From: Psammoneis japonica
Taxonomy: Eukaryota
Assembly: GCA_008632985.1 (NCBI GenBank)
Contig: QPGO01000032.1
Location: 245,330-309,329, forward strand
DNA: 64,000 nucleotides
Reading direction: 5' to 3'
In this document: positions 1,533 through 57,635 of the stretch, one piece after another
How positions within the stretch are numbered: the first letter of the stretch is position 1
Layout of the letters: every line of letters starts with the position of its first letter
Position numbers and translations under genes: made by a program
Notes under the pieces: generated by a model
The model's input: the letters and a program-made list of their open reading frames with translations, nothing else
The model's database searches: none
Told to the model about the DNA's origin: nothing

Positions 1533-1935
1533 GACGTGTTCCAGCTCTAGGTGGGACCTCGTACCACTGAACTGTGACATAATTATTTTTTATCATCCGT
1601 CGCATGTTTCGCACGTACATTTCTACGTGTTCTCTATTATAAAAAATTGTTCCACACTGCCTGTTTTGCGAAGCCAAAGGCTTTCTGTTACTGCATCTGC
1701 ACTTATGTCAATAAAAATGCGCTGGGTATATTCTTTAATGTCTAAAGAATATACCCGGGCATGCTGTAAAGAATGTACTTCAAGTGTGGAGGAGGAGATG
1801 CGTTCGCAAAATTGCCTCTTTTTCTGTTGGCGATCATTCATATATTCATTGCTTAATAATTTTACTACGGAGCTCGCACGTAGAATTCTACGGGCCCAAT
1901 GTCACAAAAAGTCCCACCTAGGACTGGAACCCGTC
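1533..1935. mobile_element. Non-autonomous TIR element (MITE) nested in the copia pol region
   Basis: TIRs GACGTGTTCCAGCTCTAGGTGGGAC / GTCCCACCTAGGACTGGAACCCGTC. 4-bp TSD ACCA (1529-1532, 1936-1939). Removing it restores the in-frame copia peptide IWGPPEDVIKGKT. Interior is AT-rich with normal TpA/CpG. Confidence 0.9.
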
Positions 1936-4900
1936 ACCAGAGGATGTGATTAAAGGAAAGACCAAGGGTGCTCACCATTCCCACGGGTGGAACGATGTTG
2001 TTGCTTTGCCATCTGAACTTTGCAAAAGGCAGAGCAATGGAATGACTCTGGGCATCAACATCATGGAGGTTTGTGGAGTCAAGCTCCTGCACTCCAGCAA
2101 CAAGACTGCCAAGCGCCAAGCAAGTGTGAAGCTGAAGTCCAAGAAGCACATCGATGTCAACGACACACTGGACATGACACTGTGACAACACAACAAGGCA
2201 CTCTTCAAGATGGATTTCATCAAGTGCAATTCCAAGTTCAAGGAAATGTCATCTGAGGTTGCAGATGGCATGAGCATTGAACTCATTGCTGTCAACACAC
2301 AAGACCATGTTCCTGAGGTGGAGCGCAGCATCCAAACCATCAAGGAACAAACTCATGCCATGGTGCACCATGCACCGCACAAGGCAATGCCCAAGCTCAT
2401 GTGAGAGCATGTGGCAATCAAGAGTGCCATGACGTTGAACATGTGCCCTCAAAAGAGGACACTCAGCTCATGTGCAAGCATTTGGCAATCAAGAGTGCCA
2501 TGATGTCAAACATGTGCCCACAAAAGGAGGGCATTTCAGATGTCTGCAGTCCACACACCATTGTGCAACAACAAAATCTCGACTGCACTGAACATTTTGA
2601 ATTTTGCATTTGGAGAGTTTGCACTCTCACATGTTGAGAATCATCCCACCAATGCCATGGAGATGCGCGGGGTTGACAGCATCTGCCTGCACCCACAGTT
2701 TGATGCCGCTGACAAAGGGGGTCACTGCACCACAAATTTGCACATGGGCAAGCTTTTGAATCCCCGTGAGTGCGCTGCAGTTCCACTGACCAACACCCAC
2801 ATTCGGGCAGTCAAAAAGATAGCCTCTCATCAAGGCATCAAAGAATTCAAGTGCACTGGTTGACATGGCGACAATCTTTGTGACATCGATTGGACTGCAG
2901 GAGTGGAAGGCAGCAACAGCAACAACAACAGTGACAGTGAAGATGACTCTGATGACAAACAAAAGAACAAGCTGACAAAATTTTAGCAGGAAATGAGCAC
3001 AGTTGCACTCAACATCAAGAAGATGAAGATGAGGAGAAAGAAGAATCCAATGAAATGGGACATGAAGAACAATCAGAACCTGCTGAGATCAGAGGTTGAA
3101 TGACCAGATCGGGACGAAGCTGCTGCAACACTGTGCCAAAGGACACACAAGAAGAAAATTCTCTTTGCAGGAGTGGCAGCCACAGAACAAGAGGAGCGCA
3201 AGCAAAGGAAACTCAAACACTGCCATCACCCAAGAACAAATGTCAATCCCAATCTAGAGGATGACATGGAATGCAACTGCAAGGTTGGACTCATCACAGC
3301 ATTCTTCATGTGCAAGTGCAATGACAGAGCAAGAGCAGGACAAGAGATCTCACTCGGACAACAGCACCTGCTGCACAAAGGCCCAAAGTTGTTTGGCCAG
3401 AGGGGACATGATGCCTCAGAAAAGAAAACAAAACAACTGCATGATCAAGAGTGTGTTTCCAACCAGTGTCAGTGAAAGACATGACTCCGCAAGAGAGAGC
3501 CAAGGCAATGGTGGCCCAGATGTTCCTGATGGAGAAGCACGATGGATGCACAAAAGGGCAAATGGTGCACAACGGGAAACCATCACAAGAGTGGCTGGAC
3601 AAGGATGAGTCAGCCAGCCCAACAGCATCACTGGAAGGAATCATGATGACTGCAGTGATGGACACGAATGAAGGATGCAACATTGTGAGCACAGATGTTC
3701 CAAATGCATTTGTGCAGACAGAAGTTCCGGAGCCAGAGAAAGGCAAAGACCAGATTGTGATGAAGATTGCAGGTTTGTTGGTGGACATGTTGGCAAACAT
3801 TGATCCCAACCTGCATGAACCGCACGTGGTCCTAGAGAGAGGAAAGAGAGTCCTCTGTGCACAAGTGGCAAGAGCCATCTGCGGCATGTTGGTCGCGGCT
3901 CTGCTGTGACACAAGAAGTTCCGAAAGGACTTGGAGAGGGTCAGGTTTGAGCTCAACCCATGTGACTCTGCTGTGGTGCAAGAAGCTCCAAAAGGACTCA
4001 GAGAGGGCCAGGTTTGAGCTCAACACATGTGACCCATGCGTTGCCAACTGCATTGTCAATGGAAAGCAGCGTGCAGTGTGATTCCATGTGGATGACCTGT
4101 TGTCGAGTCACATGAATCCCAAAGCAAATGACAAGTTTCTCAAGTGGTCAAACAGAGAGTGCGGGAGCCATGGTGAGGTTGTGGCAACAAGAGGAAAGAA
4201 ACATGACTGCCTTGGCATGATCCTGGATTTCACCGACAAAGGAAAGCCAAGGGTGGACATGAGAAAGTGCACAGGATCAACGATTGATGATTTCCTGGAA
4301 AAGATCAAGAGCACAGATTTTGCAATGATGCCTGCAGGGGAGAACCCATTTGAGATGGGCGGCACAAGACCGTCCGTAGAGAAAGCACAAATGTTCCACA
4401 TGTGGGTGGCCAAAGGATTGTTTGCATCCAAGAGAGGCCGGATGGACATGCACCCTGCAACATCAGCGCCATGTGCGCAAATGAGGGAACCCACAGACAA
4501 AGACTGGACAAAGTCAGTCCAAAGTCTCAAGCATTTGAATCGAACAAGGAATGAAGTGTCGACACCAAGCGCCAAGAATCTCCGAGTGATAAAGTGGTGC
4601 TTGGACACATCATTTGCAGTGCATCCAGATTTCAAGAGCCACACCAGAGCAGCAACGACAATGGGCGATGGAGCAATGCAAGCCATGTTGAGAAGACAGA
4701 AGCTCAAAACACAAAGCAGCACAGAAGCTGAGCTGGTCGGAGTTGACGATGCAATGACTGTGATCCCATGGACAAAGCTGTTTGTGGAACACCAAGGACA
4801 TCCTGTTGACAAGAACACACTGTGCCAGGACAACAAGAGCTTGATCTTGTTGGAGACCAATGGTCGTCAAAGTGCCGGCAAATGGTCAAGGGCACTCAAC

Positions 4901-5114
4901 ACAAGACATTTCTTTGTGTGCGATCAAGTCAAGAAGGGCAATCTGACCATTGAATGCTGCCCTGCAGATGCAATGATTGGGGATTTTATGACCAAGCCAT
5001 TGCAAGGCGAGAAGTTGTGCAAATTTAAATGAGCCGTCATGGGGTGCCAGACCCAACAGCAACAGCAGTGGGCTCCTGTTTTGTGACATCAGACAAGAAC
5101 TCTGACGCACATGG

Positions 5115-6575
5115 GTGAAAGAACCCTGCAACCTGGAGAATGACAAATGTGCAATCTTCTCCCAGAACAACACGGTGCAAGCAACACCAAGCACACAAGC
5201 AACCATGGATGGCAGCGAAGCTGGAGGTTTCAATGGAAATGTGGCAGTGGCCACAGCTCACACATTTGATGAACGCACGTGCTGTGAGCATGTCACCTTC
5301 AACGAGTGCAACAAGGTGCCAGGCAGATGGCCCAAGAATTGTTTGCTCAAGATCGCGAAGATGTTCAAGACACATGTCCGATGCAAGGATTTGTTCATTT
5401 GCAGAGAAAAGTTGGTTGTGGACAGCCAGCCCACAGATTGGTGGAATGGAAACAAGATCTTGGCATTTGAGCGGCATGCTGAGCAAGCGCACAGAAGAGT
5501 GCAAGACCTGCAAGGTTTTTTGCACAGAAGGTTGTGTCCTGCCTTTGACCCAAACAGGAGACAAGAACTTGAAAAAGGAAGACTGCCATTGCTGAACCCT
5601 GTTCTGGCAAGAGACACACTGGATTACACACAGCTTGCAGTGGACCTGGAACACAGGCACAGGCACAACTCTGATGACATGAGAGCGGCATGGCAAGAAA
5701 GATGCTGTGCAAGGCTTGAAGCGATGGTGACTGTGTTCGAAATGTGCCAGACATGGACACCACTGATGCAGGAACATGTGTTCTCTGCAACCCCAATGAT
5801 CTCCATCCATGACAAAATGGAGACCATCACAGACAAGATGAGGTGGCTGAGCGTTGTGGTGCACACCCGTGAGTCCCATTGGAAATTCCTGGTGAAGAGG
5901 CCAGAAACTTGCAACAAGGCAAGGCCGTTGTTTGCTCAGGGGCAACGGAACCCTGCAAAATTGGCCTTTGACAGGTTGGACATTGACCACATGGCAAAGG
6001 TGTCATGGCTGCAAGGTGTGCCAACATGTGGCATGGACCAACTCGGGACATGTGGCGGACTAATGTGTCCAGTTCACAGCCATGCTGCCGAGCATCCAGA
6101 TTGTCATGAGCTTGTCAGAGACAAGAACAGAGCCATGTTTGATGCATTGAAACCACCAATGTTCTTCAGAAGGACAATCAAATTTGTGTCCAATGTGCAA
6201 AAGCATCACTGGGTTGCGCACGCGGTGGACTTTCTCACATTGACTCCAAACACCGCGCACCAGTGGATCCGAGATCGAATCAAACAATTGAACAACCAAA
6301 ACAACATGCTGAGTGACGTGCAGCAAGAGTTGGTTAGACAAGATTTTACAATGATGTTCGTCAACTGTGTGAAAGGCATTGCCAATGCATTTGATGACAT
6401 GCAGCACTGCTCATGCGATGAAGAAGACACGCGGCATTTTGCCGAAGTGGCCAACATTGAGAGAGAACCTCATGATGTTCTCTGTGACGCATGTGCAAGG
6501 TGGAATGATTTCCCTCAAGGAGATGTTCCAACCTGTGTTGTGGCCCAAGAAAAATTGAACAAACAATTGGAGTGA
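5115..6575 (+). pseudogene. Extra ORF between pol and the 3' LTR of the copia element, function unknown
   Basis: 486-codon open frame inside the element, with only one Tyr visible. Related sequence lies at the same position in copia element 2 (~55850-56850). Confidence 0.6.
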
Positions 6576-6587
6576 GCGGCAGGAGTG

Positions 6588-6933
6588 TGTCGGAGCAAGT
6601 TAGACGAGGGTGTTGGAGAACCCGGAAACAGCTGAAGTCTGTGCACATTTGTCTCCTGACATGGCCCATCTGATGACAATGTGTTCTTTGTCATTGCACT
6701 GTCATCCCCAAAATGAAGTGTTCTCACTCTTCAGAGTGAGTCATCTGGTGTGTCAACTGTTGTCATCACTGCTGGGAAGCATCTGTTAAAACCAAATCTC
6801 CCAGTGTGCGAAGTTGTGCTGAACAATCTTCCGGGCAAAACCACAGCCGCACAAGCAGCCAGGATGTGCACATCAAGAGCGGAGGAAGCTTTGTGAGATT
6901 CCCTTTTGCCACCATTGACACGTTGGTTCAACA
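6588..6933 (+). repeat. 3' LTR of copia element 1
   Basis: Starts TGTCGGAGCAAGTTAG after the PPT, ends TTGGTTCAACA, followed by the TSD AACGT. Confidence 0.92.
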
Positions 6934-7987
6934 AACGTCACCAGAGAGTGCCGCCAACTCTCTCTGCACACACCTGTCTTTGAGAGCGGTGCCAAGACAC
7001 AGACGCAGCTGTGCTGGTGCTGTGCACTGCAAGACACTGCAGCACAAAGACCAGAGTGCAGGGAAACAGCTGGGCTGGACTGTGAATGACCAACAGCAAA
7101 AAGCTCATGGGGCTGGCACAACTCAGCTTGTGGGCCTCTCCAAAGGCAAATGGTGCCGCCAAGTGCTCGACAACTGGGCTGTGCAGGGGCAAAAGACAAA
7201 ATCCTGCTGCACCGCCAAGAGCTCTTTGGAACCTCAAAAACTTGTTGAGGAAGTGAGGGCAGCACAAGGCGATGGCTGCTCCAGCAGCTGGCTGCGGAGG
7301 CTGAAATCAAGCTCAAAATGTGCTGCCAAGTCAAGTTTTTCTGCAGCCATGATGTCTGCAGAAGCTGAGAGCTGCCGCCACAACACCTGCGCTGGAGAGT
7401 CTGAGCAGCACTCATGCTGTTGGACTCCAAAGCAGACAGCGAGGTTCCTGGCAAGCTGCTTTTCTTCCCCACACTTTCCTTCAACAAGTCATGAGAGTTG
7501 CGGCTTTTACTTTCAACTGCATCGGACGATGTGTTCGTCGACAATCCTGACTCTGACAGCGGACAGTTGGTTGAGGCAAGTTTGATTTGCTGATTGAATC
7601 TATGAATGACCAATGACCGCCCTAACGTCACCTATTTATAGCACCTTCAGTCAGTGTGTACGAGAAGTTCGCTCTCTAGCAATGCTTGCCTTATTTGTAA
7701 AATAGTCCTGAAGTCCATTTCGTCGATCCCGATTTTTCAATGACCGCTGCTGGGCAATATGGTACGACGTACGCCGATTGAGCTTTTTGCGGCTTCATTC
7801 AGTCACTTCTTACCGATGCCTTCTTCCCATCAGCAAATATAATTTCTACTCTCTACTCTAATGTAGAGAGTAGAGAGGCTCGGAGTCGGAACAAAAATAC
7901 TGGCTCGTAGCCTAGGTGGCGAACCGTCGGCAAACTTTGTATAGGGATGAAAATCTACCGTAGATCCAGCCTTGTTTAAAAAGAACG

Positions 7988-8572
7988 ATGATTACATTCT
8001 CTCCAGACTTTGACAGTAGCGCGTGCCTCCCAGCTCTGTCCACCTTGAGTCGACTCAGTCTTGCCACGCCAACAAAAACAGCAATAAAGACAGGGGCCGC
8101 GCACGTTCACGAGAAGAAGCGCAATCTTCTAAGTTCAAAATCGAGAGACAACGTATTGCAACAACCAAGTCCCTGTCATCACATTCGAGGCTCCGAACAT
8201 GAGCGTCACAAAACGACAAGCACTTCAAGCCTCCCATCTGATCTACCGAAGCCTGTTCGAAAAATGCGCACCAACCACACAATTGCCTGTACCCGTCGCG
8301 TTCGTTTTGCCGAGCCCCTCACAGATACAGTCATCATTTATCCAAGCATTGATGAGAAGCTGCTGACACCAGAAAGGCTGGCACGGAACAAGAAAGGCAA
8401 ATGGCCAGGCTTGGAGAACGAGATTGCAAGAATCCATCGATCGATCGAGCTTGAGAAAATAACAAGGAAGAACACGCATTTACGAGATTTACTCGTGGAT
8501 ATTAGCGTGCCAGAGCTACGAACTACTCTGCATGGCATGCGCAAGAGACTAGAAAGTATCAAGAAGCCGTAG
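7988..8572 (+). CDS. Hypothetical protein, 194 aa
   Basis: ATG-initiated ORF in normal-composition DNA; contains RRVRFAE (RVxF-like) and a helical C-terminus. Confidence 0.6.
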   Translation: MITFSPDFDSSACLPALSTLSRLSLATPTKTAIKTGAAHVHEKKRNLLSSKSRDNVLQQPSPCHHIRGSEHERHKTTSTSSLPSDLPKPVRKMRTNHTIACTRRVRFAEPLTDTVIIYPSIDEKLLTPERLARNKKGKWPGLENEIARIHRSIELEKITRKNTHLRDLLVDISVPELRTTLHGMRKRLESIKKP

Positions 8573-9116
8573 TCCAGACTCCCTTACTTCTCCTCTCGAA
8601 CTGCCATGATTGAACAAGTCTTCCCACTCCTTCGAGCAAGCACCATGTGGTAGCAAAGTCATGCAAAGGCATGCGTAGTCCACAAACAAAAGTATATAAT
8701 ATAAGAGTTTTAGCTCCTGTCCTGTGCAAAAGTGTGAAAATGTGGAATGATCAAGATGCTCAACGAATTGGAATATGATAGATCGAGATTGAGAAAATAA
8801 CTAGGAAGAACACGCATTTACGAGATTTACTCGTGGATTTTTAGCGTGCCAGAGCTACGAACTACAGTGCATGGCAGGCGCAAGAGACTAGAAAGTATCA
8901 AGAATCCGTAGCCCAGACTCCATTACTTCTCCTCTCGAACTGCCATGATTGAACAAGTCTTCCCACTCCTTCGAGTTAGCACCATGTGGTAGCAAAGTCA
9001 TGCAAAGGCATGCGTAGTCCACAAAAACAAAGTACATATAAGAGTTTTAGCTCCTGACCTGTGCAAAAGTGTGAAAATGTGGAATGATTAAGATGCTCCA
9101 CGAATTGGAATATGAT
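8443..9116 (+). repeat. Tandem duplication of ~337 bp (3' end of CDS plus 3' flank)
   Basis: 8443-8779 is repeated at 8780-9116 with high identity. Confidence 0.92.
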
Positions 9117-9566
9117 GTAATGTGCAATTAATCTGAGACATCGAACTGCGAGCAGAGTCTCTTCCTTGAGTAAGATACTCTTTCAGCTAACAAACACTTT
9201 CAGCCAGTACGCACGGTTCGCAATGGACAGCAGTCGAGTGAGTACGGTAGCTAGCCCCACCCATCATCGACCCTCCATAACCCTCTTGCCTCTTGCTCCA
9301 AACACTTTGGCACCGCCGCGAGCGACTCTGATTCAATGTTCGCATCTTTTGTGTTTTGTTGCTGCCGACGTCAGTCGTGGAAGCAGATTGGGTCGTATTC
9401 ACGGTTCATGGTCGCGCTTCTCTCGTAGGACACATTCGTGCATTCGTAGAGCCAGCCAACACTTTGTGGCACTCGTGATTCAAGGTTCTGATGCACAAAC
9501 TCATGCTTTTCACTGTTTCAACCGATATTGCCACATCCACTGTAAACCAAACAAACCTCCTTTCTC

Positions 9567-10368
9567 ATGACCTTTTCGAAGAAGAATGAGCAGGACAGCA
9601 TCCCAAGTTACCTTTGCTGTCCGCTAACTCTTGACGTAATGATTGATCCAGTGCTTGATCGAGAAGGAAATTCGTTTGAAAGAAGCGCGATTGTGGCGTG
9701 GTTGCAACATGAAAGGATCTCCCCAATCTCTAGACAGCCTCTCAATGAAGCATCCCTTATCCCAAACATTGCCCTGCGACAAACCATTCAACAATACATG
9801 GGTAAGACCCCCCCGGTGCTACTGTCTATCTTTTACTTCTAAAACGACTTAAAGTTTCTCTTTTCCCACGAAAGGCACCTCATGGTCAGACAAACAAAAA
9901 GAAATAGGCAGACATCGATGGAGGTTTCCGGATGAAAATAGTCAGGAGCTCGTTCATACTTCCAGCAAGCTACGAAGAATCGATGGATTTTTGCAAGACA
10001 TTGGGCGCGCCGTCTCAAAGGATCTCCGTCTGAATAAATCGGGTCTCTGTGCATTTAGATATCAAGATTTTACAGTTGTGGTGGAAGTTCCAGAATTGAC
10101 CGATTCATTCTACATATATACTACCGAGACACAGCCTTCTGCTACGCTCGAACTAAAGGACAAACTGTTGGAAATGAATCATTTGCAGCTCAAAACGCGC
10201 GGAGGCTGTCTCTCCATCACAAAGACGAAGGACAACAAGTCGGACTTAACCTTCTCCTTCTCTGATCGAGCCTTTGAAATCAGTTCAACCGACTTCCGAA
10301 ACATTCTCGAGAATTTTATTGATGCGGCTGTTGCAATTAGAGCTTCTATCTTTAGTCAGTTTGTCTAA
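9567..10368 (+). CDS. U-box E3 ligase-like protein fused to a CesT/Tir-chaperone-like domain (2 exons, intron 9802-9874)
   Basis: U-box motif IPSYLCCPLTLDVMIDPV...SFERSAI...SPISRQPL...LIPNIALR. The GT-AG intron joins in frame to FLQDIG...LNKSGLCAF...LLEMNHLQ...GGCLSI...FRNILENFID. Confidence 0.85.
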
Positions 10369-15559: not shown

Positions 15560-15584
15560 GATGTTGTGTCATGCTTGATGTTCT

Positions 15585-16590
15585 TAGGCCCTGGCCCAAT
15601 GCGCACTCCCAAACCCCAAAATGCGCACCTTTTTTTGGCACTTTGCGCAGTACGTACAATTCTACGTGTCCCTGGTACTGGACGACGGCAAGACACACGA
15701 CAATCCAATTGACAAAGGAGGCATCAAAAAGCACAGAGTTCAACCGCCCTGCATTCATCGCGAATTTCAAAGAGGAGCTGAAGATGTACAAGGAGAAGAT
15801 TGACAAAATAGAAGATGACCATTGGACTACTCTTGAAGGATCAGATGAGTGTGACACCATGCTTGCATTGAAAAAGCAGGAAGAAGCTGGAGAGGAGCGT
15901 GATCCAAGGAACCTTGAAGGACACATGGACCGACTGGCTTGGAAAGAAGATGATGCAGAGGTTGCAAGGAGGGTTTGGGAATGGTGGCATGTTCACCATG
16001 AGATGCATTTAGCCATGTCTGAAGCTGCACGTCTGGTGGTCCTCATGCAACTTTCCAGTGTTCTTCCGTTGAGCGAGTTTTTTCTCAGCTCAAGTGCACT
16101 GTTGAGACAGCTCCACAGCAAAACACACTGCATGATGCCATTTTGTTGCATCTCTTTTCTCGTTTGCACAGGGACATGATGTCAATCAAGACTGTCAGTG
16201 GCACTGCAAGAGAAGCCCAGAGTCGAGAGAGCTCTTTCTCTCAGCTCGAGTGCACTTGCATGGTGTGCAGCTTGCTTTGTTGTGACGTCGTTTTTTTCTC
16301 CTTGGAACAAGGGGTGTGATTTGGTGGCAACACAGTGTAGCAGTAATGTGATTAATACGATGTAGCAGCAATATGATGTGCTAGTAATGTGATGTAGTGG
16401 CAATGTAAAATGTACGTAATCGAGAAGTGGCGAACGCGTGTTGTCACCGTCTTGACCGGTGATGAAGCACGGTTGCACTGAACCTGGTACTGCACCACGT
16501 ACATTCTACGTAGTGCGCACTCTGCGCAAATTGCGCATTCTGCTCACAGAAAATCCCCAGTTTGCGCACTGCGCATTGGGCCTGAGCCTA
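15585..16590 (+). mobile_element. Internally deleted hAT DNA transposon
   Basis: Imperfect TIRs TAGGCCCTGGCCCAATGCGC / GCGCATTGGGCCTGAGCCTA. Perfect 8-bp TSD GATGTTCT (15577-15584, 16591-16598). hAT C-terminal dimerisation remnant VWEWW...SEAARLVVLMQLSS/SVERVFSQLK. Confidence 0.93.
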
Positions 16591-19850: not shown

Positions 19851-19923
19851 GGGTGCAGGGGTGAACATCTTGAACCCAGGAGCAGCAAATGGAGGACACT
19901 CCCTCCTCCTTTCCCTGCCCACC

Positions 19924-31093: not shown

Positions 31094-31704
31094 GGTGGTA
31101 CTGGGAAAGCTTCACAAGATACTGAATTTGTGACTCAAGATCGCGATCTTGCACAACCGTTGATTTCCTCGTACTCAATTACGTAGGATTCTACGTGAAA
31201 GCGAAGCCGACGGAAAGATCGCGATTTCCAACGGGCGGGGCTCAGTCAGCACGTCACAGTCGGTGCTGTAGCCTCTAACATTTTTTTAGAATTCCTGGGC
31301 GCCATTACCGGGTGCCGAATATAACAGGAGTACGTGAGTATCTAGCTCTGCCGTCGAATCTGTCCTTAAAACTGATCACAACAAGGGATCAGGCAGTAGA
31401 GATGAGGAATGCTACACCCCAGATCGGATGTCAGGAGTGAAGCGATTTTAATTGATAGACTCTGTGTTGCGGGCGCTCTAAAGGACGGGTACAAAGCCGG
31501 CATTGTCCATGGCAAGGACAGTGTTGCTAGAATTGATCCTCGATAAGGTACAGCAGGTAATCACGCGAGAAACAAGATAGGATATGGGAGGGCATATATA
31601 CAGAATAAAGTACCTGCTTTAACATTTATACAAAAGCCCGGTCTATGAAGGGTGAATCACTAATCACTAATGTGGAGTCTTTGTACACGTTCCTATGGGG
31701 CATT

Positions 31705-32163: not shown

Positions 32164-32843
32164 CGTTCTTTTTCGTATTGTGAGTTGTTCAGACTGCGAA
32201 AATGTGCCTGTGCGATTTGTTGCGATTGTATTTGTGATGGTCCTCGTTCAAAAATTCAGCTCGATTTTGTGGAGGTAACGCATAATATGGTATACGAAGC
32301 TATAGATGTTCATAGTGATGTCAAGCTGACGTCAGGTTCTTTTTTACGTAGAAATCTGTAGGAATGTAATGAACGTGATGTCAGAGTGACGTGGAGATTA
32401 TTCTTGAAAGGAATCTTTTCACGGCAAACAACTCTACAAAATCTTGTATGTAGGATTGGTACTGCAGATATGCATAACAAGCTGAAATTCTTCGATGGTT
32501 CTTTTTCTGATTGTGATGTCATCATGACGTGGTTTATGGAATCTCTCTACGATTGCCTTAGTACATAACCGAAGTATGTAGCGATAGTACTGAGTCTCAC
32601 TGAGTTCATTCGATTTCGCTGAGCGCGCAAAATGACCGTCGGCGGGACTGAAGTCTTCCCGCCTAGTACATTATTTTTGAAATTCGGCTTCTCTTGCCAA
32701 GCTGGAAGAGCCTTATTTTTTGAGAGATTTCAATCACGACGAAGAAAAAGCCACCTGTCGACATCAGGATTCGGTTGTCTTCCTTTTTCTGTAGCCATTT
32801 TTGCAGTGAACAAAATTTGTTTATCTACCAAGAATACAAAAAC

Positions 32844-33407: not shown

Positions 33408-33958
33408 AAGTGAATTCGGAAGGTAGATCTGGGCTACCATCACCTAGAGCTAAGAGTAAGAAGTTACATGCCTTTCACATTGGACGATGTAATGGTGTCA
33501 TTCTATATTAAAAAATCATTTTCGAGGAAAGCGCAAAACAGAAGCAACCATCCCTATCCAAAACAAAAACTGTTGTTGCAATTTATCGCTCGTCACATCT
33601 TTCCCAGTGTTCGATGCTCGATTGGCTCTTCCCACTTGAAACCATTTGAAGTAGATCAGACTCTACTTTATGGCTAGATGGTTATACTTTTGTGACATTA
33701 GGCTCTCTCTGCTATCTTCCGGCTCTCTACTGAACTCTACTCTCTATTCATAGAGTTCAGAGTAGAGAGTCTCGTGAGAGTGCCATCTATCGGCGTGGGG
33801 CGTACGTGGACCATCCTCGTTGTTAGAGGTCCGAGCTACGAAACTGTCGCCGTGTCATCAGCGCTTCTTGCTTTTTCACGATTGCGTAGAAATCAACGAC
33901 ACCCTGGTACTACACGGAAGCGCCGAGTGTTCACAAAATTCGTTATCTCTCGCAGAAA

Positions 33959-36832: not shown

Positions 36833-37070
36833 AGCGGTCTATCGCCAGAAATTTATTGGCAGTTTTTTTAGCAGCCGCCATCACATCACTACTAACACCT
36901 ACTAAAAAGCCCCGTATGTACATCGTACACAATTTCTGTACCAGAACGGATGAAAGCAGTTAGTCGATTTGGTCGGAAAGATACTGTACGTCATCCGATG
37001 TTCAACTTTGCACGACATCGCAATCGACCATGATGATCCATGTTGGATCGACGAAATAAAACGAGGCACC

Positions 37071-37739: not shown

Positions 37740-38314
37740 GATCCGAATTTCTGCAGAGTTCGAATACATCTCGGATTTGTAACTCGTCCACTGGGGATTG
37801 AGCTTTTTGATACAGATAAGCTAAAATTTGGCAAGGTCTATCTCTCTCCAGTGTCATAGCAACATAGCTTGTAGCAGTTCAAGAACAACCCGACATGCCT
37901 ATCCGCGTTTGGTCATTCTCGGATTCATTCATGCAAGTATCGTCACCATGGTGCAAATGTGTGTGAAGCCCATCTCTGGCTGATCATAGGGCCCTAGACA
38001 TTTATCCTGATGATGTCGAAAGAGACTTGTGGGTAAAGTGTGAATCGTCTCATCATTTCTTCCCTCGCTTGAACGACGATGTGTTCAAAGTGATCATACC
38101 ATCCAGCCTAGAGCAATCAATTCCATCAACCGAGCTTCTCTTCTTGCCGGCCGCCTACAGACCGTACGTATAGTCTTCACGTGCATTCTACGTGTTCCAA
38201 GATCGCCGATCGCATCCGCGGTCACAACTCAACAACAATTGCAACAACAAAGCGACAGCAACGAGAACACAGTAGATTACACTTGCTGTTATACAATAAC
38301 ATTGCCACCTTACT

Positions 38315-44635: not shown

Positions 44636-44989
44636 TTTGTTGTTTGATGCCAATGCTCTGGGTCTTACTTGTGCAAAGAAAAATGAAACAAAAATAATGA
44701 GAGCTTTGTGGGGCTTCTCCGTTTTGTGAAGCAAGCGACCAGCACGGGTTTCAGGTGACTGACTGGTGTCATCGAATTCAAATCTTTGTACTAAAGACTT
44801 CACGTAGATTTCTACATCAACTAAATTTGAAATCTGAATAAATTTATCAGGTACTTAAAATTAATTAATCGATAGCAAACACGACCCAGTCACAAAACCG
44901 CCACTCTTCTCAAGACTGAAGAACTCAAGGAAGAACGGGAAAAAACGAGCGCAATGGCACTAAGAAGCCTTTCTCTGTCAGCGCTCTCC

Positions 44990-50900: not shown

Positions 50901-50990
50901 CAGCAAGAAGTGAAACTGTGGCTGCAGGCACTCTCAATGGTGCTCCTGCAGCAATCTAAATTTGAGTGCAGCATCTCCTGCAGCTCTTCC
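44990..50990. mobile_element. Block of heavily decayed, TpA/CpG-depleted repeat remnants (families not identified)
   Basis: Composition matches the recognised dead TEs; no intact motif recognised. Includes a ~57-60 bp tandem duplication at ~50086-50200. Confidence 0.5.
48843..49610 (-). pseudogene. Hypermutated partial copy of the sulfotransferase-like gene (equivalent to ~43670-44440), intron retained
   Basis: Collinear alignment; translates as KHWFQHNPLDKKSALAVAQFHDPCAWVKAMSEKPHHSPNHIDLDWKEF versus KHWFQYDPPDKKNILVIAQFRDPYAWVEAMRKKPHHSPNHVDLDWKEF. Confidence 0.92.
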
Positions 50991-50997
50991 ACATTGG

Positions 50998-53900
50998 TGT
51001 TAGAACAAGTTGGAAGATGGGAAATTTAAGAAACCCAGATGTGTTGAAGGAAAGACACTGTTGAACCTGTCGTGGAAGATGCAGCAACCCCTTTTGTGCA
51101 GAAGAAGGAACATGCCATCATTGATCTCTTGTTCCATCCATTTTGTTTGTCTCACTCTTTGGAGTGATTCATTTGGTTCATCAAGAATGCATGATTGCAT
51201 CACGTTGGCATCACTGGGTGCCTGTCACACCATGAGTTTGAAGTTTGCATGGACAACTTTGCAGGCAACCCACAGCCACACAAGCAGCCAAGGCAAACAC
51301 AACAAGAGCACAGGAAGCCTTGTGAGATTCCTGTTTGGTGCCTTTGACTTGCTGGTTTGACATTCAATTCAAAGAGTCAAGAGCACAACTGTGTTGGTGC
51401 TTGTCGACACTTTGCTGCCTGCAGTTCACAGATTGCTGAGTGCCTGCAATGTGAGTGGCAGAGGACATGGCAGAGGTGACAGTCAAGACACCAAGGATGT
51501 GGTCGTGAAATGGGTGACAAGAGTCACAGGTCCTCACAAGTGAAGAAGAAGACCACTGCCAAGAAATGCTTTCAGCTTGAGATGAAGTTTCATCCTTCAT
51601 CACTGAACAGCAAGTCTTGGAATGCAACCTTTGAAGATGTCAAGGAAAAGATTGTGAGGTGCATGCAAAAGGAGCACACTCAAGGCACACATCCAGCAAG
51701 GTCCATTGAAGACATGGCTCACAAGGACTTGAGCACCAAAAGGCCAACATTGGGAATGGCATCAATGGTGGCACCAGCAGGGGACAAGTCAGACTGCCAA
51801 GAAAAGTTGCTCTAAAGACTGCAAGAGGAAAAGGAGCTGGAGTTCCAGCACAAAGCAAAGCTTTGCAAGTGCAACAACAAAGTGAGGCAGTTTGAAGAGA
51901 ACAAGACTGCAGCACTTTCCAAGATGTCAGCCAGATGACTGCTGCACCAAGCAAATGAAGCAGGGAGTGTGCAAGCCAATCCCACTTGTTTGACAATCAG
52001 GGATGATCCAGTTGAGCTGTTCAAGCTGATCCAATCACTTGCCTTTGACTCTGAGGGAGGTCAACACCCATTTCACATGCTTGCCAGATCAAGTCAGAAC
52101 CTGCCAGATGTGAAACAACAAGAACATGAGTCACTGAATGACTGCTTGTCAAGGACAAAGTCACATGCAGAAATGAGATGAAGACATCTCACTGGTGGAC
52201 AGCAACAGCTCCAGTGCAGGTGCCACCAGATCTGATTGATCTGCCCACTCAAGCTGAAACAGAGGAGCTGCGTGGCACAAACTGAAGCTGGCAACCAGAG
52301 ACAAGCATGGACTGAGACAACAAAGATGTGGAAATGGATGAGATCATCTTTGACAATGGTTTGACCCTCAGCATGGCAGCCAGCCTGAGACAAGTGCCCA
52401 ATGTGTGATCAGCAAAGGTCAAGAAAGACCTGTCCACAAGTGCAGAAGTGGACACTTTAGATGGCCCTGCGCCCAGTGTTTTTACTCCGTTCTACTCAGC
52501 CATCACTGCAGCTGCTGCTGTGCCTCCTTCTGCTGTCCCCTTCCATTCTTTGTGGGCTCTTCACAGCTGTGTGCTTAAAAAACTGTGCCATGCCCAGATG
52601 GGAGCCATGAAGCTTGGATCACAGAATGTGATGGCAAACACTCCAAGCATGAAGGACGTGAAGAGCAAATGCCACATTGCATGTGACAACCAAGTGGTGG
52701 ACAAGTTCCAGCTGCTGGACAAGAAGACTGCCAAGAAAGCAGTGGTGTTCAAAGACAATGACATTGGACCACACACCTTTGCACCAAGCCAGGAGTTCTT
52801 TGACTGCACAAAAGATCTCCAAGACAGCAAGTCACATGTGAGCATGCTGTCAAAAACAAAGAAGAAGCTCAGAAAGAAGAGCAACAAGAAGCACAGGAGT
52901 GCATCTGGAACTGTCACTCCAATGCTGGAGCAGAGCTCTGCTTGGGCCGGCCATGTTGTGAAGTTGGAATCCCTGACATGGACAGAATGGTGTGCATTTG
53001 GGGACCACCCATTGACGCACCAAAAAGAAAAGCCAAATGTGCCCATCAAGCCCATGAGAGGAACAACGTTGTTGCAACCCCACCTGAGATGTGCAAGAAA
53101 CAGAGAGCAGGTGTGATCCTCTGCATTGACATTGTGGAAATGTGCAGAGTGAAGATCCTGCATGCAATTGACAAGATGACAAAAAGCGCCAATTGAGTGT
53201 GAGACTGCAATCCAAGAAACATGCTGATGTGCTGCACCAACGCAACATGGATTTGTTCAAGATGGACTTCATTGAGTGCAATCCTGAGTTCAAGGACATT
53301 CTGAAAAAAGTTGCCAATGACACAAATCTCAAGCTGCTGTCTGCAAATGCCAGCAACCACATTCCTGAAGTTGGGCAAAGTTGTTGAGACCTGCAAGGAG
53401 CAAAACTCAAGCCACAGTGCACCGTGCACCACATGCTGTGCAAGGCAACACCCAAGCTGACATGCAAGCACACCATGATCAAGAATGCTGTGATGGCAAA
53501 CATGTGCCCACAAAAGGAGGGAATCATTGACATGTGCAGCACAGTCCACACACTGTTGAGCAAAGAAGAAACCTTGATTGTGACAAGCACTTCATGCATG
53601 GATTTGGCACATTTGTCCTGTCCCACGTTGAAAATGACCTGACAAATGTGATGGACATGTGTGGTGTTGACAGCACTTGCCTGCTGCAACCACGTGTCTT
53701 GACATTTCCAGCAAGGGCAGCCAACACACAATGAACCTGCAAACGGGGAAACTGCTGAGCCTCCACAAGTGCACTGCTGCATCCCTGGCCACACACGCAT
53801 GCAAAGGTGGTCAAGAAGATGGCCTCAGCACAAACACCATCAAAAACTTTAAATTTGCGGGAAAATGTGGAGACAACCTGCACGGCACTGATTGGACTGC

Positions 53901-56850
53901 AGGATTGGACAGCAAAGAAAACAAAAATGAAAACAAAGAAAAACAATGGCAGCAGCAAAGACAAAAGCAACAGCAAAGATGAAAGTGAGCCAAATCAGAA
54001 GACAAAGACAATGAAGAAGAAGAGCTTGACCCAGAAGATGAACATGATGAAGTGCCAGAAGACAAAAGGTCCAGTTGCAGTCAACAACATGAGGACCATG
54101 ACAATGAAAAACAAAATGACTGTGAAGAGTCAAATGAAGAGTCAGAAGAAGATCCAGAAATGGACAAATCATCCACTGAAGAAAAGAGTGGAGAACAACA
54201 ACTGGTGGACAAGGCAGATGGACTGCCATGACATGAAGTCATGAGAACACCAAAAAAAGAAGAAAGTTTGGCTTGTGGGAGAGACAGATGCAGACAGAAA
54301 AGGAGTGCTGAAAGCTTGAGTGCTGCCATCATTTGAGAACTGGCATGAGCCCCAATCCAGGACGGAGCAGCATTGAATGTGACACAGATGCAGGAATGGC
54401 ACCAGCACAATTCATGTGTGAGATCAATGGCTGGCTCTGGTCAGGAAAGGGTGGTCCTTTGCCCAACAGTTCCCACTGCACAAAGGCCTGAAAGTGTTTG
54501 GCCAGAGAGGACACAAAGCCACAGAGAAAGAAAGAAATGAGACAGCTGCATGACAGAGTGTGCTTTGCACCAATTTCAGTTGAAGACATCTCTCTGACTG
54601 AGAGGAAAAAGGCCATGATTCCCTTGATGTTCCCAGCAGAGAAGCAAGATGGTCACACACCAAAAGGGCGGGTGGTCTGTGTGATGGAAAACTGACCAGA
54701 GAATGCCTGGACAAGGATGACTCAGCTGGCCTGACTGCATCATTTTGGAAGGAACATTGACAACAGCTGTTGTCAATGCAGTGGAAGACCGTGATGTGAT
54801 GAGCATCAATGTGCCAAATGCGTTCATGCAGACATGGATCCTGGAGCCAAAAAAGGGCAAAAACCAGATTGTGATGAAGATCACAGGAGTGTTGGACAAC
54901 ATGCCAGTGAGCATTGATCCCAACCCATGTGTGCCATGCACAGTTGTGGAAAAGAGAAAGAGAGTCTTTTGCACCCAAGTCATTGCCAAAGCAACACATG
55001 GAATGTTGACCACAGCTTTGCTGTGGCACAAGCAATTCTGCAAAGACCCAGAGAAGATTGGGTTTAATTTCAACCCATGTGATCCAATCATTGCCAGCAG
55101 CTGCTTGCCACAGTGAAGACGTTCCACATGTGGGTGGCCAAAGGACTGTTTTGTCCAAGAAAGGCTGCATGGATGTGCACCTGACCATTGCAGCACTGTG
55201 CATGATGCAGGTCAGAGAACCAACCAACAAGGGCTGGGAGAAGTCAGTCCATTGTCTCAAGGGTTTGTTGAGCCGGGCATGAAATGAAGTCTCCACGTCA
55301 AGTGCAAAGGACCTCCAAACAGCTGAGTGGCACACAGATGCATCATTTGCAGTGCACCCAGATTTCAAGAGCCACACCTGACAGAGGAATTGTGGCTGTG
55401 GGCAATGGAGCAGGTCAGGCCATGTTGAAGCAGCAGAAGCTCAGCACCCAAAGCAGCACAGAAGCTGAACCAGTGGGAGTTGATGACACCATGACTGTGA
55501 CACAGTGCCTGGATGAAGTTGTTCATGGAGCACCAAGAGGCCATCCAATTGATGAGAACATCCTTTGTCAGGACAACAAGAGCACCATGCTGCTGGAAAC
55601 TGATGGGTGCAAGAGTGCAGGAAAAAGATCAAGGACACTCAACATTCAACATTTTTGTGGTTGTCAATCAGATCAAGAGAGGCACCAATCTTTGAGTGCA
55701 GCACTGTCCTGCTGATGAAGTGCTTGGAGACTTTAGAACTGAGCCATTGCAGGGCAAGAAGTTTTGAAAATTCAAACAAGCCATTGTGGGCTGTTGGCAT
55801 CAAGCATGACAGGAGCATTTCCTGTTTGTGATGTCAGATGAGAATTCTGATGCATGTGGGTGAAAGATCCCTGCAACCCAGAAGGTGTGGTGAACTGCAT
55901 GGTTCAACCAATCACAGAGTTGCTTGTTTTGCCACAACCATGATTTTGATGACCATTTGCACCAATTGTGAGCTTGAAGAACCAGGGTGTGTGCTGATGA
56001 GCAGCGTGAAGCACATGACGCATTCATGCAGTCAACAGTGGCCACAACATTGTTGGAATGAGTTTGTGAAGTTGGGTGAACCATCAGAGAGAGAGGGAGA
56101 GAAAGCAACTGATTTCAATGTCAAGACTTCCAGAAGGCAGACTGGAAGAACACAACAAATGGACACAACATTTTTGGCCGAGACTGGTGACAGATCCCCA
56201 CATCTGTTGAGAGGCAGCAATCAGCACACATTTGTTGTCAGTCGTGTTCATGCAACACTGCAAGAAGGAGGTCTGGAACTCTTTCCAAGGACTGCAAGAA
56301 GAACGCAGGGATGAATTTGAACAACAAAGGTGGCACAAGCTGTGGACAGTGAGGCACAAGACAATGGGACATGTGTGCAGGGAGAAACATGGATGGACCA
56401 ACCAAGTGCATCAGCACACATCTGTCTGCCACTGCACTGATGATGATCTCCTTGTTTGACAATGGAGAGGAGATGACAGCCATGGTTGAGGACCATGTGA
56501 GAGCAGCGCACAAGACCAAGGCACATTGACAGCTTGTTGGAAATCAAATCTGGGTCCAATGACTCAAATGTTGCAAGCCAAGATTCTGGTGTGAGGCCAA
56601 CCTAAGAGCACACCACAGCAATGATTGTGGGATTTCTTGGCAACAGGTCATGTCCACCACATGGGCAGAATGTCGACACCAGTCTGCCCCACATGTGGCA
56701 TGATTGCCATGGGACATGTGAACCTCTCATGGGATGCACCACCAACTGGCCCACAGAAATGAAGATGTGACAATTTGGGTTGGTGCAAGACAACAATTCA
56801 GCTGTCTATGATGCTTTGAAGTTGGCACAATTCTTCACAAACACAAAATT
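50998..56850 (+). mobile_element. Second Ty1/copia element related to element 1, more decayed and 3'-truncated
   Basis: 5' LTR 50998-51362 (TGTTAGAACAAGTT...TTTGACA; shares CCACAGCC.CACAAGCAGCCA with the element 1 LTR). gag, IWGPP, integrase, RT (NVPNAFMQT, NPCDP, with an internal deletion at ~55110), RNase H (QSSTEAEPVGVDD, QDNKS) and a 3' extra-ORF remnant. No 3' LTR seen. Confidence 0.88.
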
Positions 56851-57635
56851 GTTGAAACAAGGGGCCTGAGAAAGAATGGGGGCTTGCCACAATCTGCATT
56901 TCTTTGAGCTGGGCTGCACAGAGTTGCCAATGATTGGGTGATGGACCCAATCAGGGCCATGGGTCTGCACAGCAACACTATGTAAAAGAAGACTTGGCAT
57001 GCGTGCATGCAACATTGTAAGTGTCATTGAAAGTGCTGTTGTGTGCCTCATCACATGGCACACCGGCAATGGCCGGGGCACATTGGTTGATTGATTGATC
57101 ACTCTTGTCAATTTTTTGTCACGTTTGTTTTCCCTGTTACATGCCACTTGTCACAAGAGAGAGAGAGAGAGAGAATTTCACAACATTTGTCATTTTGATT
57201 GTCGTGGTGGTGTTTTCTTTGGTGCAACAGCGTTTTGAGCGCCTCGAAATTTTGTGAGGGCGTTTGGCGATGTGGTCGAAAATTTCAAAATTGTGCTGGT
57301 ACATCTGCGACGTACATTTCTACACGGACTCAAGTTTAATTTATATTCAGTCTTTAAGATGGACAATTTAATTAACCTATTAAACATCATATAATATACA
57401 AAATTCAACGGCCGTTGAGCCGTTGAGTACAACCGCTACGTGGCATGTACGACGATGGAAATTTCCGTGTGCACTCAGTGCGCCGTTGCGTAGAAATCAT
57501 ACCAACGCCTACGCAGCATCGTGGGTGAGTCGCAAAAATCGCATTCGCATCTCTCTCCACAACAAGACAACACGATCGTGTTGCAAAAACGCGACAGTGC
57601 ATGTCGAGTCGTCCATTGCAATCACAAAAACTACA

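What the first reader, a model, noticed from the sequence alone, without database searches (positions are those of the whole stretch)
1613..57324. Recurrent quasi-palindrome ACGTAsAw(w)TCTACGT at unmutated islands, TE ends and promoters
Copies: 1613 ACGTACATTTCTACGT and 1878 ACGTAGAATTCTACG (both in the unmutated MITE); 15652 ACGTACAATTCTACGT and 16497 ACGTACATTCTACGT (both ends of the hAT); 44802 ACGTAGATTTCTACA and 57310 ACGTACATTTCTACA (just outside the two edges of the 12-kb mutated block); 31181 ACGTAGGATTCTACGT (cyclophilin upstream); 38179 ACGTGCATTCTACGT (UBA1 upstream); partial at 32346. It is built from the very dinucleotides erased elsewhere and is shared by unrelated TE families and host promoters. 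Inference: a binding site for a host factor that opens chromatin or insulates, possibly co-opted by TEs to escape silencing and mutation.
Basis: partly seen in the sequence, partly recalled or inferred. Interest (0 to 1): 0.78.

Follow-up and report, generated by a model that had tools for sequence, protein, structure and literature searches.

The report
Conserved diatom promoter palindrome, also on transposons
The repeated 16-letter near-palindrome is real and is most likely a docking site for a gene-regulating protein that diatoms keep in front of many genes and that several jumping genes also carry, but nothing here shows that it shields DNA from this genome's TA-erasing mutation.

Summary
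Observation confirmed. All nine listed copies are at the stated coordinates; the strict pattern gives 4 matches against 0.00 expected. A looser pattern gives 9 against 0.98 in unmutated DNA.

The motif is half of a bipartite element: box A (ACGTAsAw(w)TCTACGT) plus a GTAC-core box B (CTGGTAC) 3-12 nt away. Copies outside transposons lie 60-330 nt upstream of putative start codons. Copies in transposons lie 40-95 nt inside each end of a hAT-like element and of a very high-copy MITE.

It is therefore a conserved cis-element; the window itself looks centric-diatom-like.

The "shield/insulator" reading is not supported:
- Most MITE family members are TA-converted.
- The hAT interior is converted close to the boxes.
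- 180-310 nt of unconverted DNA separates the two "edge" copies from the block edges.
- Three other block edges have no strong copy within 350 nt.

The scan had noted the TpA hypermutation many times in this genome.

The parts
1533..1935 (.). Unmutated MITE of a very high-copy family, 25-nt inverted ends; carries two box A copies
   Evidence: The inverted arms 1533-1557 and 1911-1935 are 88% complementary. TA o/e is 0.89 and CG o/e 1.02. Summed contig depth is 2e4-4.7e5 against 95-850 in the flanks, with 2420 pieces laid. An empty-site joint 1527>1935 skips 407 nt with 7 ambiguous letters.
1613..1628 (+). Box A, ACGTACATTTCTACGT, about 80 nt inside the MITE left end
1878..1893 (+). Box A, ACGTAGAATTCTACGG, about 42 nt inside the MITE right end
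15585..16590 (.). Non-autonomous hAT-like element: normal ends, TA/CG-converted interior
   Evidence: It has 21-nt inverted ends and an 8-bp target duplication GATGTTCT. The Dimer_Tnp_hAT match is weak, E 0.13. The ends have TA o/e 0.83 and 0.95. The interior 15701-16320 has TA o/e 0.09 and CG o/e 0.38.
15652..15678 (+). Box A (15652-15667, ACGTACAATTCTACGT) followed by box B (CTGGTAC, 15672-15678); 93 nt upstream of the putative ATG of the minus-strand SnoaL-like gene (15559)
16403..16417 (-). Weak box A copy (ACGTACATTTTACAT) inside the hAT right part
16484..16511 (+). Box B (CTGGTAC, 16484-16490) followed by box A (16497-16511, ACGTACATTCTACGT), 79 nt inside the hAT right end
31181..31196 (+). 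Box A, ACGTAGGATTCTACGT, about 186 nt upstream of the putative signal-peptide ATG (30995) of the minus-strand cyclophilin gene
32346..32361 (+). Partial box A (ACGTAGAAATCTGTAG) in a divergent intergenic region beside the HSP20-like gene, among TGACGT words
33884..33910 (+). Weak box A (GCGTAGAAATCAACGA) followed by box B (CTGGTAC, 33904); 60 nt upstream of the ATG at 33959 of a signal-peptide gene
36924..36944 (+). Variant CGTACACAATTTCTGTACCAG between the divergent TLC-domain gene (ATG 36826, minus strand) and the gene starting at 37071 (plus strand)
38179..38193 (+). Box A, ACGTGCATTCTACGT, 123 nt upstream of the UBA1 ATG (38316)
44802..44817 (+). Box A, ACGTAGATTTCTACAT; 167 nt upstream of the ATG (44635) of minus-strand gene X1 and about 180-235 nt outside the left edge of the 12-kb converted block
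57296..57325 (+). Box B (CTGGTAC, 57296) followed by box A (57310-57325, ACGTACATTTCTACAC); 311 nt upstream of the first in-frame ATG (57636) of gene X3 and about 180-310 nt outside the right edge of the block
62771..62797 (+). Box B followed by weak box A (CTGGTAC CGACTT GCGTAGGAATCACG), about 250 nt upstream of the ATG (62531) of a minus-strand HA-domain gene

Best explanation
The motif is half of a conserved bipartite cis-regulatory element of diatoms. Box A consists of two arms, ACGTAG and CTACGT (left arm often ACGTAC in this genome), around a 3-4-nt A/T spacer. Box B, a GTAC-core box (CTGGTAC), lies 3-12 nt to one side. Inferred: a sequence-specific protein, probably a dimer or two dimers on ACGT cores about one helical turn apart, binds it 60-330 nt upstream of start codons and helps set promoter activity, in either orientation. 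Transposons of several kinds carry the same element in their subterminal or 5' regions, most likely as part of their own promoters. A MITE family with very many copies therefore spreads it through this genome. Its closeness to edges of TA-erased blocks follows from its being in promoters of genes next to transposon clusters. Shown: recurrence, anatomy, positions, conservation outside this genome. Inferred: protein binding and promoter function.
For: Recurrence beyond chance:
- The strict pattern gives 4 matches against 0.00 expected.
- The looser pattern gives 9 against 0.98.
- Flanks are unrelated outside the transposons.

Companion box:
- 5 of the 7 CTGGTAC/GTACCAG words in the window lie next to a box-A-like word.

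Position:
- 7 of 8 non-transposon sites start within 320 nt upstream of one of 13 putative ATGs, and the eighth starts at 326 nt. Such upstream zones make up 9.9% of 34,886 unmutated transposon-free bases. I chose the ATGs myself, not blind to the motif positions.
- The old paralogs X1 and X3 (35% identity) both have a copy upstream.

Conservation:
- One scan of metagenome contigs with the composite pattern gave 48 loci and 36 distinct matches.
- Features the pattern did not require are enriched: G after TCTAC in 21 of 36 (p 2e-5), GTG in 6 of 36 (p 2e-5), ACGTAG rather than ACGTAC in 29 of 36 (p 3e-4).
- Two carriers were typed as pennate diatoms. The L011 HSF is 78-80% identical to Cylindrotheca proteins. 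The L003 MAD2 is 71-74% identical to Epithemia, Phaeodactylum and Mayamaea proteins.
- The window's UBA1 is closest to centric diatom proteins.

Contexts in those contigs:
- The composite lies upstream of an HSF gene, a histone H3 gene (with 2 further box-A-like words) and an EF-hand gene.
- It lies 66 nt before a piggyBac-type transposase ORF.
- Both box orders relative to the gene occur.
Against: - No binding protein, transcription start or expression data: no RNA run is listed for this organism.
- Gene starts are my own ORF-based calls.
- Arm spacing varies by one base (15- and 16-mers about equally common), which is unusual for a rigid dimer.
- About a third of the metagenome matches are chance hits in phage, bacterial, mitochondrial or coding DNA. 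One match with the full extension lies inside an adaptor-complex mu-subunit exon (L005).
- In this window 4 of the 8 listed copies (5 of 9 strong-scoring copies with the weak one at 16403) sit in two transposons, so a transposon origin of the motif cannot be excluded.
Confidence: 0.6

Rival explanations
1. Transposon-derived motif. Box A (with box B) is the subterminal binding site of a transposase. The promoter copies are relics of old insertions, or sites bound by a domesticated transposase.
For: - One copy lies at a similar depth (about 40-95 nt) inside each end of both TIR elements, internal to TGCGCA subterminal repeats in the hAT.
- Both elements have 7-8-bp target duplications.
- The promoter site 33873-33916 aligns over 44 columns with the hAT left subterminal region.
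- The MITE family is very abundant.
Against: - The two elements have unrelated inverted ends.
- A piggyBac-type gene in a pennate diatom contig carries the same composite. Transposases of different superfamilies are not expected to share a long site (established knowledge).
- Promoter copies share only the boxes, not the spacers or flanks.
- The motif is kept upstream of paralogs only 35% identical.
Confidence: 0.15
2. Shield or insulator. The bound motif keeps chromatin open and blocks the spread of silencing and of the TA/CG-erasing mutator, so motif-bearing DNA stays unmutated.
For: - The hAT ends that carry the boxes have normal TA and CG, while the interior and the right flank are TA-depleted.
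- The MITE is an unmutated island in a converted block.
- Two copies lie near the two edges of the 12-kb block.
- Converted blocks show no excess of 'ghost' copies: 2 against 1.25 expected with up to 1 substitution.
- None of the motif's own TA or CG positions is among the 40 variant rows shown for the MITE family. This is not significant (my estimate p about 0.18) and 94 rows are hidden.
Against: - Most MITE copies elsewhere are TA-converted. At the 10 listed TA sites 47-82% of depth carries CA/TG, and change places are A>G 33, T>C 31, C>T 25, G>A 20, all other kinds 4 or fewer. The window copy is therefore more simply explained as young.
- Related copies of the host transposon have the empty site.
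- Conversion of the hAT interior starts 40-170 nt from the boxes.
- 180-310 nt of unconverted DNA lies between motif and block edge, so the edge is not at the motif.
- The edges at 7423, 24735 and 63424 have no strong copy within 350 nt.
- The hAT interior is CG-poor (0.38) but its right flank is CG-normal (0.93). This suggests different histories, not one event in place.
Confidence: 0.1
3. Structural hairpin. The 6-bp arms with a 3-4-nt loop act as a DNA cruciform or as an RNA hairpin in 5' leaders, not as a duplex protein site.
For: - The arms are constant and the centre varies by 3-4 nt across diatom contigs.
- G, the pairing base, is preferred at arm position 6 in 29 of 36 matches.
- Three environmental contigs end 14-27 nt from the element.
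Against: - No compensatory changes. Five of 8 window copies carry a C/C clash or a wobble pair at arm positions 5-6 yet keep the sequence.
- Box B is not symmetric, yet both orders relative to genes occur. An RNA signal would be strand-specific.
- No Rfam family matches.
- No poly(A) or other sign that those contigs are transcripts.
Confidence: 0.08

Closest known systems
Transposon-borne transcription-factor sites (MITEs and LTRs that spread host promoter or enhancer motifs; general phenomenon, recalled)
   Same: One short host-promoter motif lies in the promoters of unrelated genes and in the subterminal or 5' regions of several transposon families. One of these families is very high-copy.
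   Different: The factor is unknown. No expression effect is shown. I found no diatom paper on such a motif.
Paired ACGT-core elements bound by bZIP proteins (A-box TACGTA, G-box CACGTG and hybrids; recalled)
   Same: Each arm holds an ACGT core, often as CACGTA or TACGTG. The two cores are 11-12 bp apart, about one helical turn. TGACGT words cluster near the partial copy at 32346.
   Different: The positions between the cores (AG..CT) are as conserved as the cores, and a GTAC box accompanies them. No binding test was possible.
Baculovirus homologous-region (hr) imperfect palindrome, an enhancer and replication-origin unit
   Same: The central 12 nt, GTAGAATTCTAC, are identical (Table 2 note of PMC13513840, passages read). 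Both have dyad symmetry. The hr units of about 70 bp occur in tandem, and environmental locus L012 has a 70-82-nt tandem array of the composite.
   Different: The hr unit is a 30-bp palindrome with other outer arms, belongs to an insect virus, and is bound by the viral IE1 protein (recalled). There is no evidence of common descent; I treat it as a chance or convergent likeness.
Promoter-proximal boundary factors: Drosophila DRE with BEAF-32/DREF, yeast general regulatory factors Abf1/Reb1 (recalled)
   Same: These are short palindromic or bipartite sites 100-300 nt upstream of many unrelated housekeeping genes and work in either orientation.
   Different: Barrier activity is the defining property. 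The tests possible here do not support it.
Subterminal transposase-binding repeats of hAT elements (for example Ac AAACGG; recalled)
   Same: Symmetric subterminal position in a hAT-like element.
   Different: There is one long palindrome per end, not many short repeats. The motif also occurs in non-transposon promoters and next to a piggyBac-type gene.

Membership tests
Promoter-proximal transcription-factor binding site | Recurs more often than chance, as a short word with unrelated flanks | tested here: met
   4 matches against 0.00 expected and 9 against 0.98. No flank similarity outside the transposons.
Promoter-proximal transcription-factor binding site | Lies upstream of gene starts | tested here: met
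   7 of 8 non-transposon sites start within 320 nt upstream of putative ATGs, and the eighth starts at 326 nt; such zones are 9.9% of the sequence. The gene starts are my own ORF-based calls, and no transcription starts are available.
Promoter-proximal transcription-factor binding site | Conserved in other species at non-homologous loci | tested here: met
   36 distinct matches in metagenome contigs, with unrequired extensions enriched. Carriers were typed as pennate diatoms.
Promoter-proximal transcription-factor binding site | Bound by a sequence-specific protein and affects transcription | not testable with these tools
   This needs a DNA pull-down, DAP-seq or a reporter assay.
Chromatin barrier or insulator element | Sits at the junction between silenced (here TA/CG-converted) and active DNA | tested here: not met
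   Strong copies lie 180-310 nt outside 2 of 6 major edges and are absent within 350 nt of three others. Strong copies at 31181 and 38179 are far from any block.
Chromatin barrier or insulator element | DNA carrying the element escapes conversion | tested here: not met
   The MITE family with two copies per element is mostly TA-converted elsewhere. The hAT interior between the two copies is converted.
hAT transposase subterminal binding site | Restricted to elements mobilised by one transposase family | tested here: not met
   The motif is found in two elements with unrelated inverted ends, beside a piggyBac-type gene and in gene promoters.
Heat-shock element (HSF site) | Alternating nGAAn/nTTCn units with 2-nt spacing (recalled) | tested here: not met
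   GAA and TTC are adjacent or absent in the centre (AATT, ATT, ATTT, AAAT). The conserved parts are the outer arms.
Structured RNA family | Match to a curated covariance model, or covarying pairs | tested here: not met
   0 Rfam matches at gathering score in the window. Variants break pairs without compensation.
bZIP ACGT-core element | ACGT core with informative flanks, bound by a bZIP dimer | tested here: inconclusive
   Two ACGT cores are present in 6 of 8 listed copies. Binding is not testable.

The most novel reading that the evidence does not exclude
The composite CTGGTAC-(A-rich 4-9 nt)-ACGTAGAWTTCTACGT is the site of a pan-diatom general regulatory or pioneer-type factor that sets open promoters. 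Transposons of several superfamilies have captured it, and a MITE with very many copies seeds it across the genome. The bound site protects itself and a few tens of bases around it from the TA/CG-erasing mutator. This would explain why transposon ends keep TA while their bodies lose it.
Probability: 0.12. Interest if true: 0.75.

Novelty: new member of a known kind. Interest (0 to 1): 0.42.

Why it matters
Few cis-regulatory elements of diatoms are defined (my recollection; no literature count was made). This long bipartite motif occurs in a centric-like diatom and in two pennate diatom contigs. It lies in front of housekeeping genes (UBA1, cyclophilin, histone H3, an HSF) and on mobile elements.

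It gives a concrete handle for finding the factor that binds it, by DNA pull-down or DAP-seq, and for building promoters. It also shows how a high-copy MITE could rewire promoters.

For the TA-erasing hypermutation of this genome, it removes one proposed boundary mechanism. It leaves one precise, testable question: are the motif's own TA and CG converted less often than their neighbours in the many MITE copies?

Tried and rejected
- Whole genome: none is held, so no genome-wide scan was possible.
- RNA evidence: no RNA holder is listed for the stretch searched, so there is no transcription-start or expression data.
- Rfam and tRNA scans of the window found nothing.
- Longer repeats: self-BLAST and pairwise alignments did not join the sites into a longer repeat family.
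- Direct likeness of 44700-44900 and 57200-57420: it scores 21.5 against 10.1 +/- 1.5 for shuffles. Most of that score is the motif itself, and the direction is opposite relative to the two paralogous genes. I did not build on it.
- Empty site for the MITE: none could be found by aligning the second in-window copy of the host transposon. The empty-site joint came from the contigs instead.
- 'Ghost' motifs (TA or CG read as CA/TG) in 28.3 kb of converted DNA: 0 strict against 0.33 expected, and 2 against 1.25 with up to 1 substitution. This fits either reading.
- Viral contigs as a control for the composite pattern: only 1 match, too few to use.
- Contig ends as a proxy for transcription starts: three contigs end 14-27 nt from the element, but nothing shows they are transcripts.
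- L030 as a second 'boundary' case: on inspection its low-CG end still has TA, so it is not a converted block.
- Heat-shock element, SBP-type GTAC site and Abf1-type bipartite site were considered from memory and not pursued for lack of fit or of any test.
- Literature: full-text searches for the half-sites with 'diatom', for the 12-16-mers, for diatom cis-regulatory palindromes and for diatom MITE transcription-factor sites found no description of this motif. The Bigelowiella preprint (abstract, outline and term passages read) does not use the words boundary, insulator or promoter. Its 4 uses of 'motif' that I saw concern the TpA mutation context, a zinc finger or a deaminase signature. Its supplements were not seen.
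Full report
**What the window is.** The UBA1 gene (ATG at 38316) is 57-67% identical to its best named and unnamed relatives, which are diatom proteins (Ditylum, Thalassiosira, Odontella). This is therefore nuclear DNA of a centric-like diatom. No whole genome is held and no RNA run is listed.

About 28 kb of the window has had nearly every TA and most CG replaced by CA/TG: TA observed/expected 0.03-0.1 and CA/TG about 1.9. The converted blocks are at about 1-7420, 17200-24700, 45037-57000 and 63424-end. Earlier notes of this scan describe the same TpA hypermutation in many other pieces of this genome. They cite one preprint on Bigelowiella natans (10.64898/2026.01.13.699255), of which I read the abstract, the outline and term passages.

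The strict pattern has 4 matches against 0.00 expected in 100 dinucleotide-preserving shuffles. A pattern tolerating one substitution has 9 sites in unmutated DNA against 0.98 expected.

The sites are not pieces of a longer repeat:
- Self-BLAST links none of them.
- Apart from two overlapping segments, no pair of +/-100-nt segments scores 40 or more.
- Only the two within-transposon pairs have strongly similar flanks (z about 9; the next best is z 5.2).

**Anatomy.** The motif (box A) has two arms, ACGTA(G/C) and CTACGT, around 3-4 A/T bases. Its ideal form, ACGTAGAATTCTACGT, is a perfect palindrome.

A second box, CTGGTAC (box B, GTAC core), lies 3-12 nt to one side. Five of the 7 CTGGTAC/GTACCAG words in the window lie next to a box-A-like word, at 15672, 16484, 33904, 57296 and 62771. 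Weaker GTAC words lie beside 31181, 38179 and 44802.

- 33884-33910 (box A then box B).
- 62771-62797 (box B then box A).
- The variant at 36924-36944.
- A weak copy at 16403.
- Half-sites TTGCGTAGAA(A/T)T at 33881, 34124 and 57483.

**Where the copies lie: promoters.** Distances to the nearest putative start codon:

| Site | Nearest gene start | Distance (nt) |
|---|---|---|
| 38179 | UBA1 ATG | 123 |
| 44802 | gene X1 (minus strand) ATG | 167 |
| 31181 | cyclophilin signal-peptide ATG | about 186 |
| 57310 | first in-frame ATG of X3 | 311 |
| 33884 | secreted-protein gene ATG | 60 |
| 36924 | TLC gene ATG (divergent pair) | 91 |
| 62784 | HA-domain gene ATG | about 250 |

Seven of the eight non-transposon sites start within 320 nt upstream of one of 13 putative ATGs, and the eighth starts at 326 nt. 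Such upstream zones are 9.9% of the 34,886 unmutated, transposon-free bases. I chose those ATGs from ORFs and Pfam hits, not blind to the motif, so the statistic is rough. X1 and X3 are old paralogs, 35% identical over 192 residues, and both have a copy upstream.

**Where the copies lie: transposons.**
- The element at 15585-16590 is hAT-like. It has 21-nt inverted ends beginning TAGGCC, an 8-bp target duplication GATGTTCT, TGCGCA subterminal repeats and a sub-threshold Dimer_Tnp_hAT match, E 0.13. Box A plus box B lie 67 nt inside the left end and 79 nt inside the right end.
- The element at 1533-1935 is a MITE with 25-nt inverted ends unrelated to those of the hAT. Box A copies lie about 80 nt and 42 nt inside its ends.
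- The hAT inserted 26 nt from the ATG of a SnoaL-like gene, so its left box A now lies 93 nt upstream of that gene.

**Evidence from elsewhere.** One scan of JGI metagenome contigs with the composite CTGGTAC-N4-9-ACGTASAW(N)TCTAC returned 48 loci and 36 distinct matches. My own estimate was that chance alone would give roughly 30.

The matches carry features the pattern did not ask for:
- G after TCTAC in 21 of 36 (p 2e-5).
- GTG after TCTAC in 6 of 36 (p 2e-5).
- ACGTAG rather than ACGTAC in 29 of 36 (p 3e-4).
- In the 27 rows of eukaryote-like matches plus the two window copies, the spacer starts with A or T in 25 of 27 and C precedes ACGT in 14 of 27.

A large share of the matches therefore belong to one real element. 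About a third are chance hits in phage tail-fibre genes, bacterial or mitochondrial DNA or long ORFs.

I scanned 41 of the 57 ORFs of 140 aa or more from 28 of the 48 loci against Pfam. Two carriers were typed by their proteins:
- The L011 HSF is 78-80% identical to Cylindrotheca proteins.
- The L003 MAD2 is 71-74% identical to Epithemia, Phaeodactylum and Mayamaea proteins.

Both are pennate diatoms, so the element is shared by pennate diatoms and a centric-like one.

Contexts in the contigs:
- About 243 nt upstream of the HSF ATG.
- About 310 nt upstream of a histone H3 gene that has two more box-A-like words closer in.
- 383 nt upstream of an EF-hand gene.
- 66 nt upstream of the first ATG before a piggyBac-type transposase domain.
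- A 70-82-nt tandem array (L012).

Both orders of the boxes relative to the gene occur, about 7 against 5 by my count.

**Best explanation.** A conserved, orientation-independent, promoter-proximal binding site for an unidentified sequence-specific protein, also carried by transposons of several kinds. The two ACGT cores lie 11-12 bp apart and the arms are symmetric. This suggests a dimer, or two dimers on one face of the helix. This is inference; no binding test was possible.

That transposons with unrelated ends and, in another diatom, a piggyBac-type gene share the motif argues for a host factor rather than a transposase site.

**The shield or insulator idea.**

For it:
- The hAT ends with the boxes have TA o/e 0.83 and 0.95, while the interior 15701-16320 has TA 0.09 and CG 0.38, and the right flank has TA 0.09.
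- The MITE is an unmutated island.
- Converted blocks hold no excess of converted 'ghost' copies.

Against it:
- I laid the contigs of the likely source run on 1300-2150. This gave 2420 pieces on the MITE and summed depth of 2e4-4.7e5 against 95-850 in the flanks.
- Variant places were dominated by A>G (33), T>C (31), C>T (25) and G>A (20). All other kinds had 4 or fewer.
- The 10 TA sites listed inside the MITE carry the CA/TG form in 47-82% of depth. Most family members are therefore converted although the family carries two box A copies, and the window copy is more simply explained as a young insertion.
- Two contigs join across an empty site (1527>1935, 7 ambiguous letters).
- Earlier notes on MITE pairs in this genome say the same. 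They were leads, partly re-tested.
- Conversion of the hAT interior begins 40-170 nt from the boxes.
- The interior's CG depletion differs from the CG-normal right flank. This suggests the interior was converted before this copy inserted.
- The two 'edge' copies lie 180-310 nt outside the edges.
- The edges at 7423, 24735 and 63424 have no strong copy within 350 nt.
- Strong copies at 31181 and 38179 are far from any block.

The closeness to edges is what one expects of a promoter motif in genes that border transposon clusters.

What stays open is protection at footprint scale. The motif's own TA and CG sites are not among the 40 variant rows shown, but 94 rows are hidden, and my estimate gives that absence p about 0.18.

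**Other rivals.**
- A hairpin (DNA or RNA) fits the constant arms and variable centre. However, five of 8 window copies carry a C/C clash or a wobble pair at arm positions 5-6 yet keep the sequence, box B is asymmetric yet occurs in both orders, and Rfam finds nothing.
- A heat-shock element does not fit the centre.

**Known relatives.**
- Full-text searches found no paper with the 15- or 16-mers and no diatom paper with the half-sites.
- They also found no description of a diatom MITE-borne factor site or of such a palindrome.
- The 12 central bases GTAGAATTCTAC are identical to the core of the baculovirus hr palindrome (Table 2 note of PMC13513840, passages read). I treat this as a likeness of form only.
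- The closest kinds of system are transposon-borne transcription-factor sites and paired ACGT-core elements. Both comparisons rest on recalled knowledge.

**Verdict.**
- The 'escape from silencing and mutation' part is not supported.
- I class the finding as a new member of a known kind, of moderate interest.

Noticed in passing
window 15585-16590: The hAT-like element has TA- and CG-normal ends (116 and 270 nt) but a converted interior (TA o/e 0.09, CG o/e 0.38). The interior holds a frameshifted remnant like the hAT dimerisation region. The adjacent right flank, 16591-17200, is TA-poor (0.09) but CG-normal (0.93). Whether the interior was converted before or after insertion is open.
   Followed up: partly
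window 1533-1935: The MITE belongs to a very high-copy family: 2420 contig pieces and summed depth up to 4.7e5 against about 60 per single contig in the flanks. Its target duplication is 7-8 bp (CACCAGA). Variants among copies are almost only TA>CA/TG and CG>CA/TG.
   Followed up: partly
window 43670-44377 versus 48843-49580: An unmutated gene (X1) and a converted copy inside the 12-kb block align at 79% identity over 686 positions. Of the differences, 33 are CpG>TpG/CpA and 16 are TpA>CpA/TpG. This is an in-window before/after pair for the hypermutation.
   Followed up: partly
window 7838-7878 and 33722-33772: Two other long palindromes are built on TCTAC/GTAGA words (for example TCTACTCTCTACTCTAATGTAGAGAGTAGAGAG), both in promoter regions. 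They are a different motif family from box A.
   Followed up: no
window 31141-31235 and 38200-38215: AGATCGCGATCT-type palindromes flank box A at 31181 on both sides, and a related AGATCGCCGATCGC follows box A at 38179. They may be a second promoter motif.
   Followed up: no
window 32300-32560: A cluster of TGACGT/GTGATGTCA (CRE-like) words lies around the partial box A upstream of the HSP20-like gene.
   Followed up: no
window 7964-14697 versus 25437-29262: Segmental duplication of a gene group (U-box, CesT-like and trypsin-like ORFs), 70-74% identical at the DNA level.
   Followed up: no
L020 1-860 versus 1200-2076: An environmental contig that carries the composite motif has one half with TA o/e 0.21-0.25 and CG o/e 0.04-0.09 and the other half normal. 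A similar TA/CG-erasing signature may exist in another organism or sample.
   Followed up: no
L012 20-199: Three tandem units of 70-82 nt each carry the full composite motif: a minisatellite made of the element.
   Followed up: no
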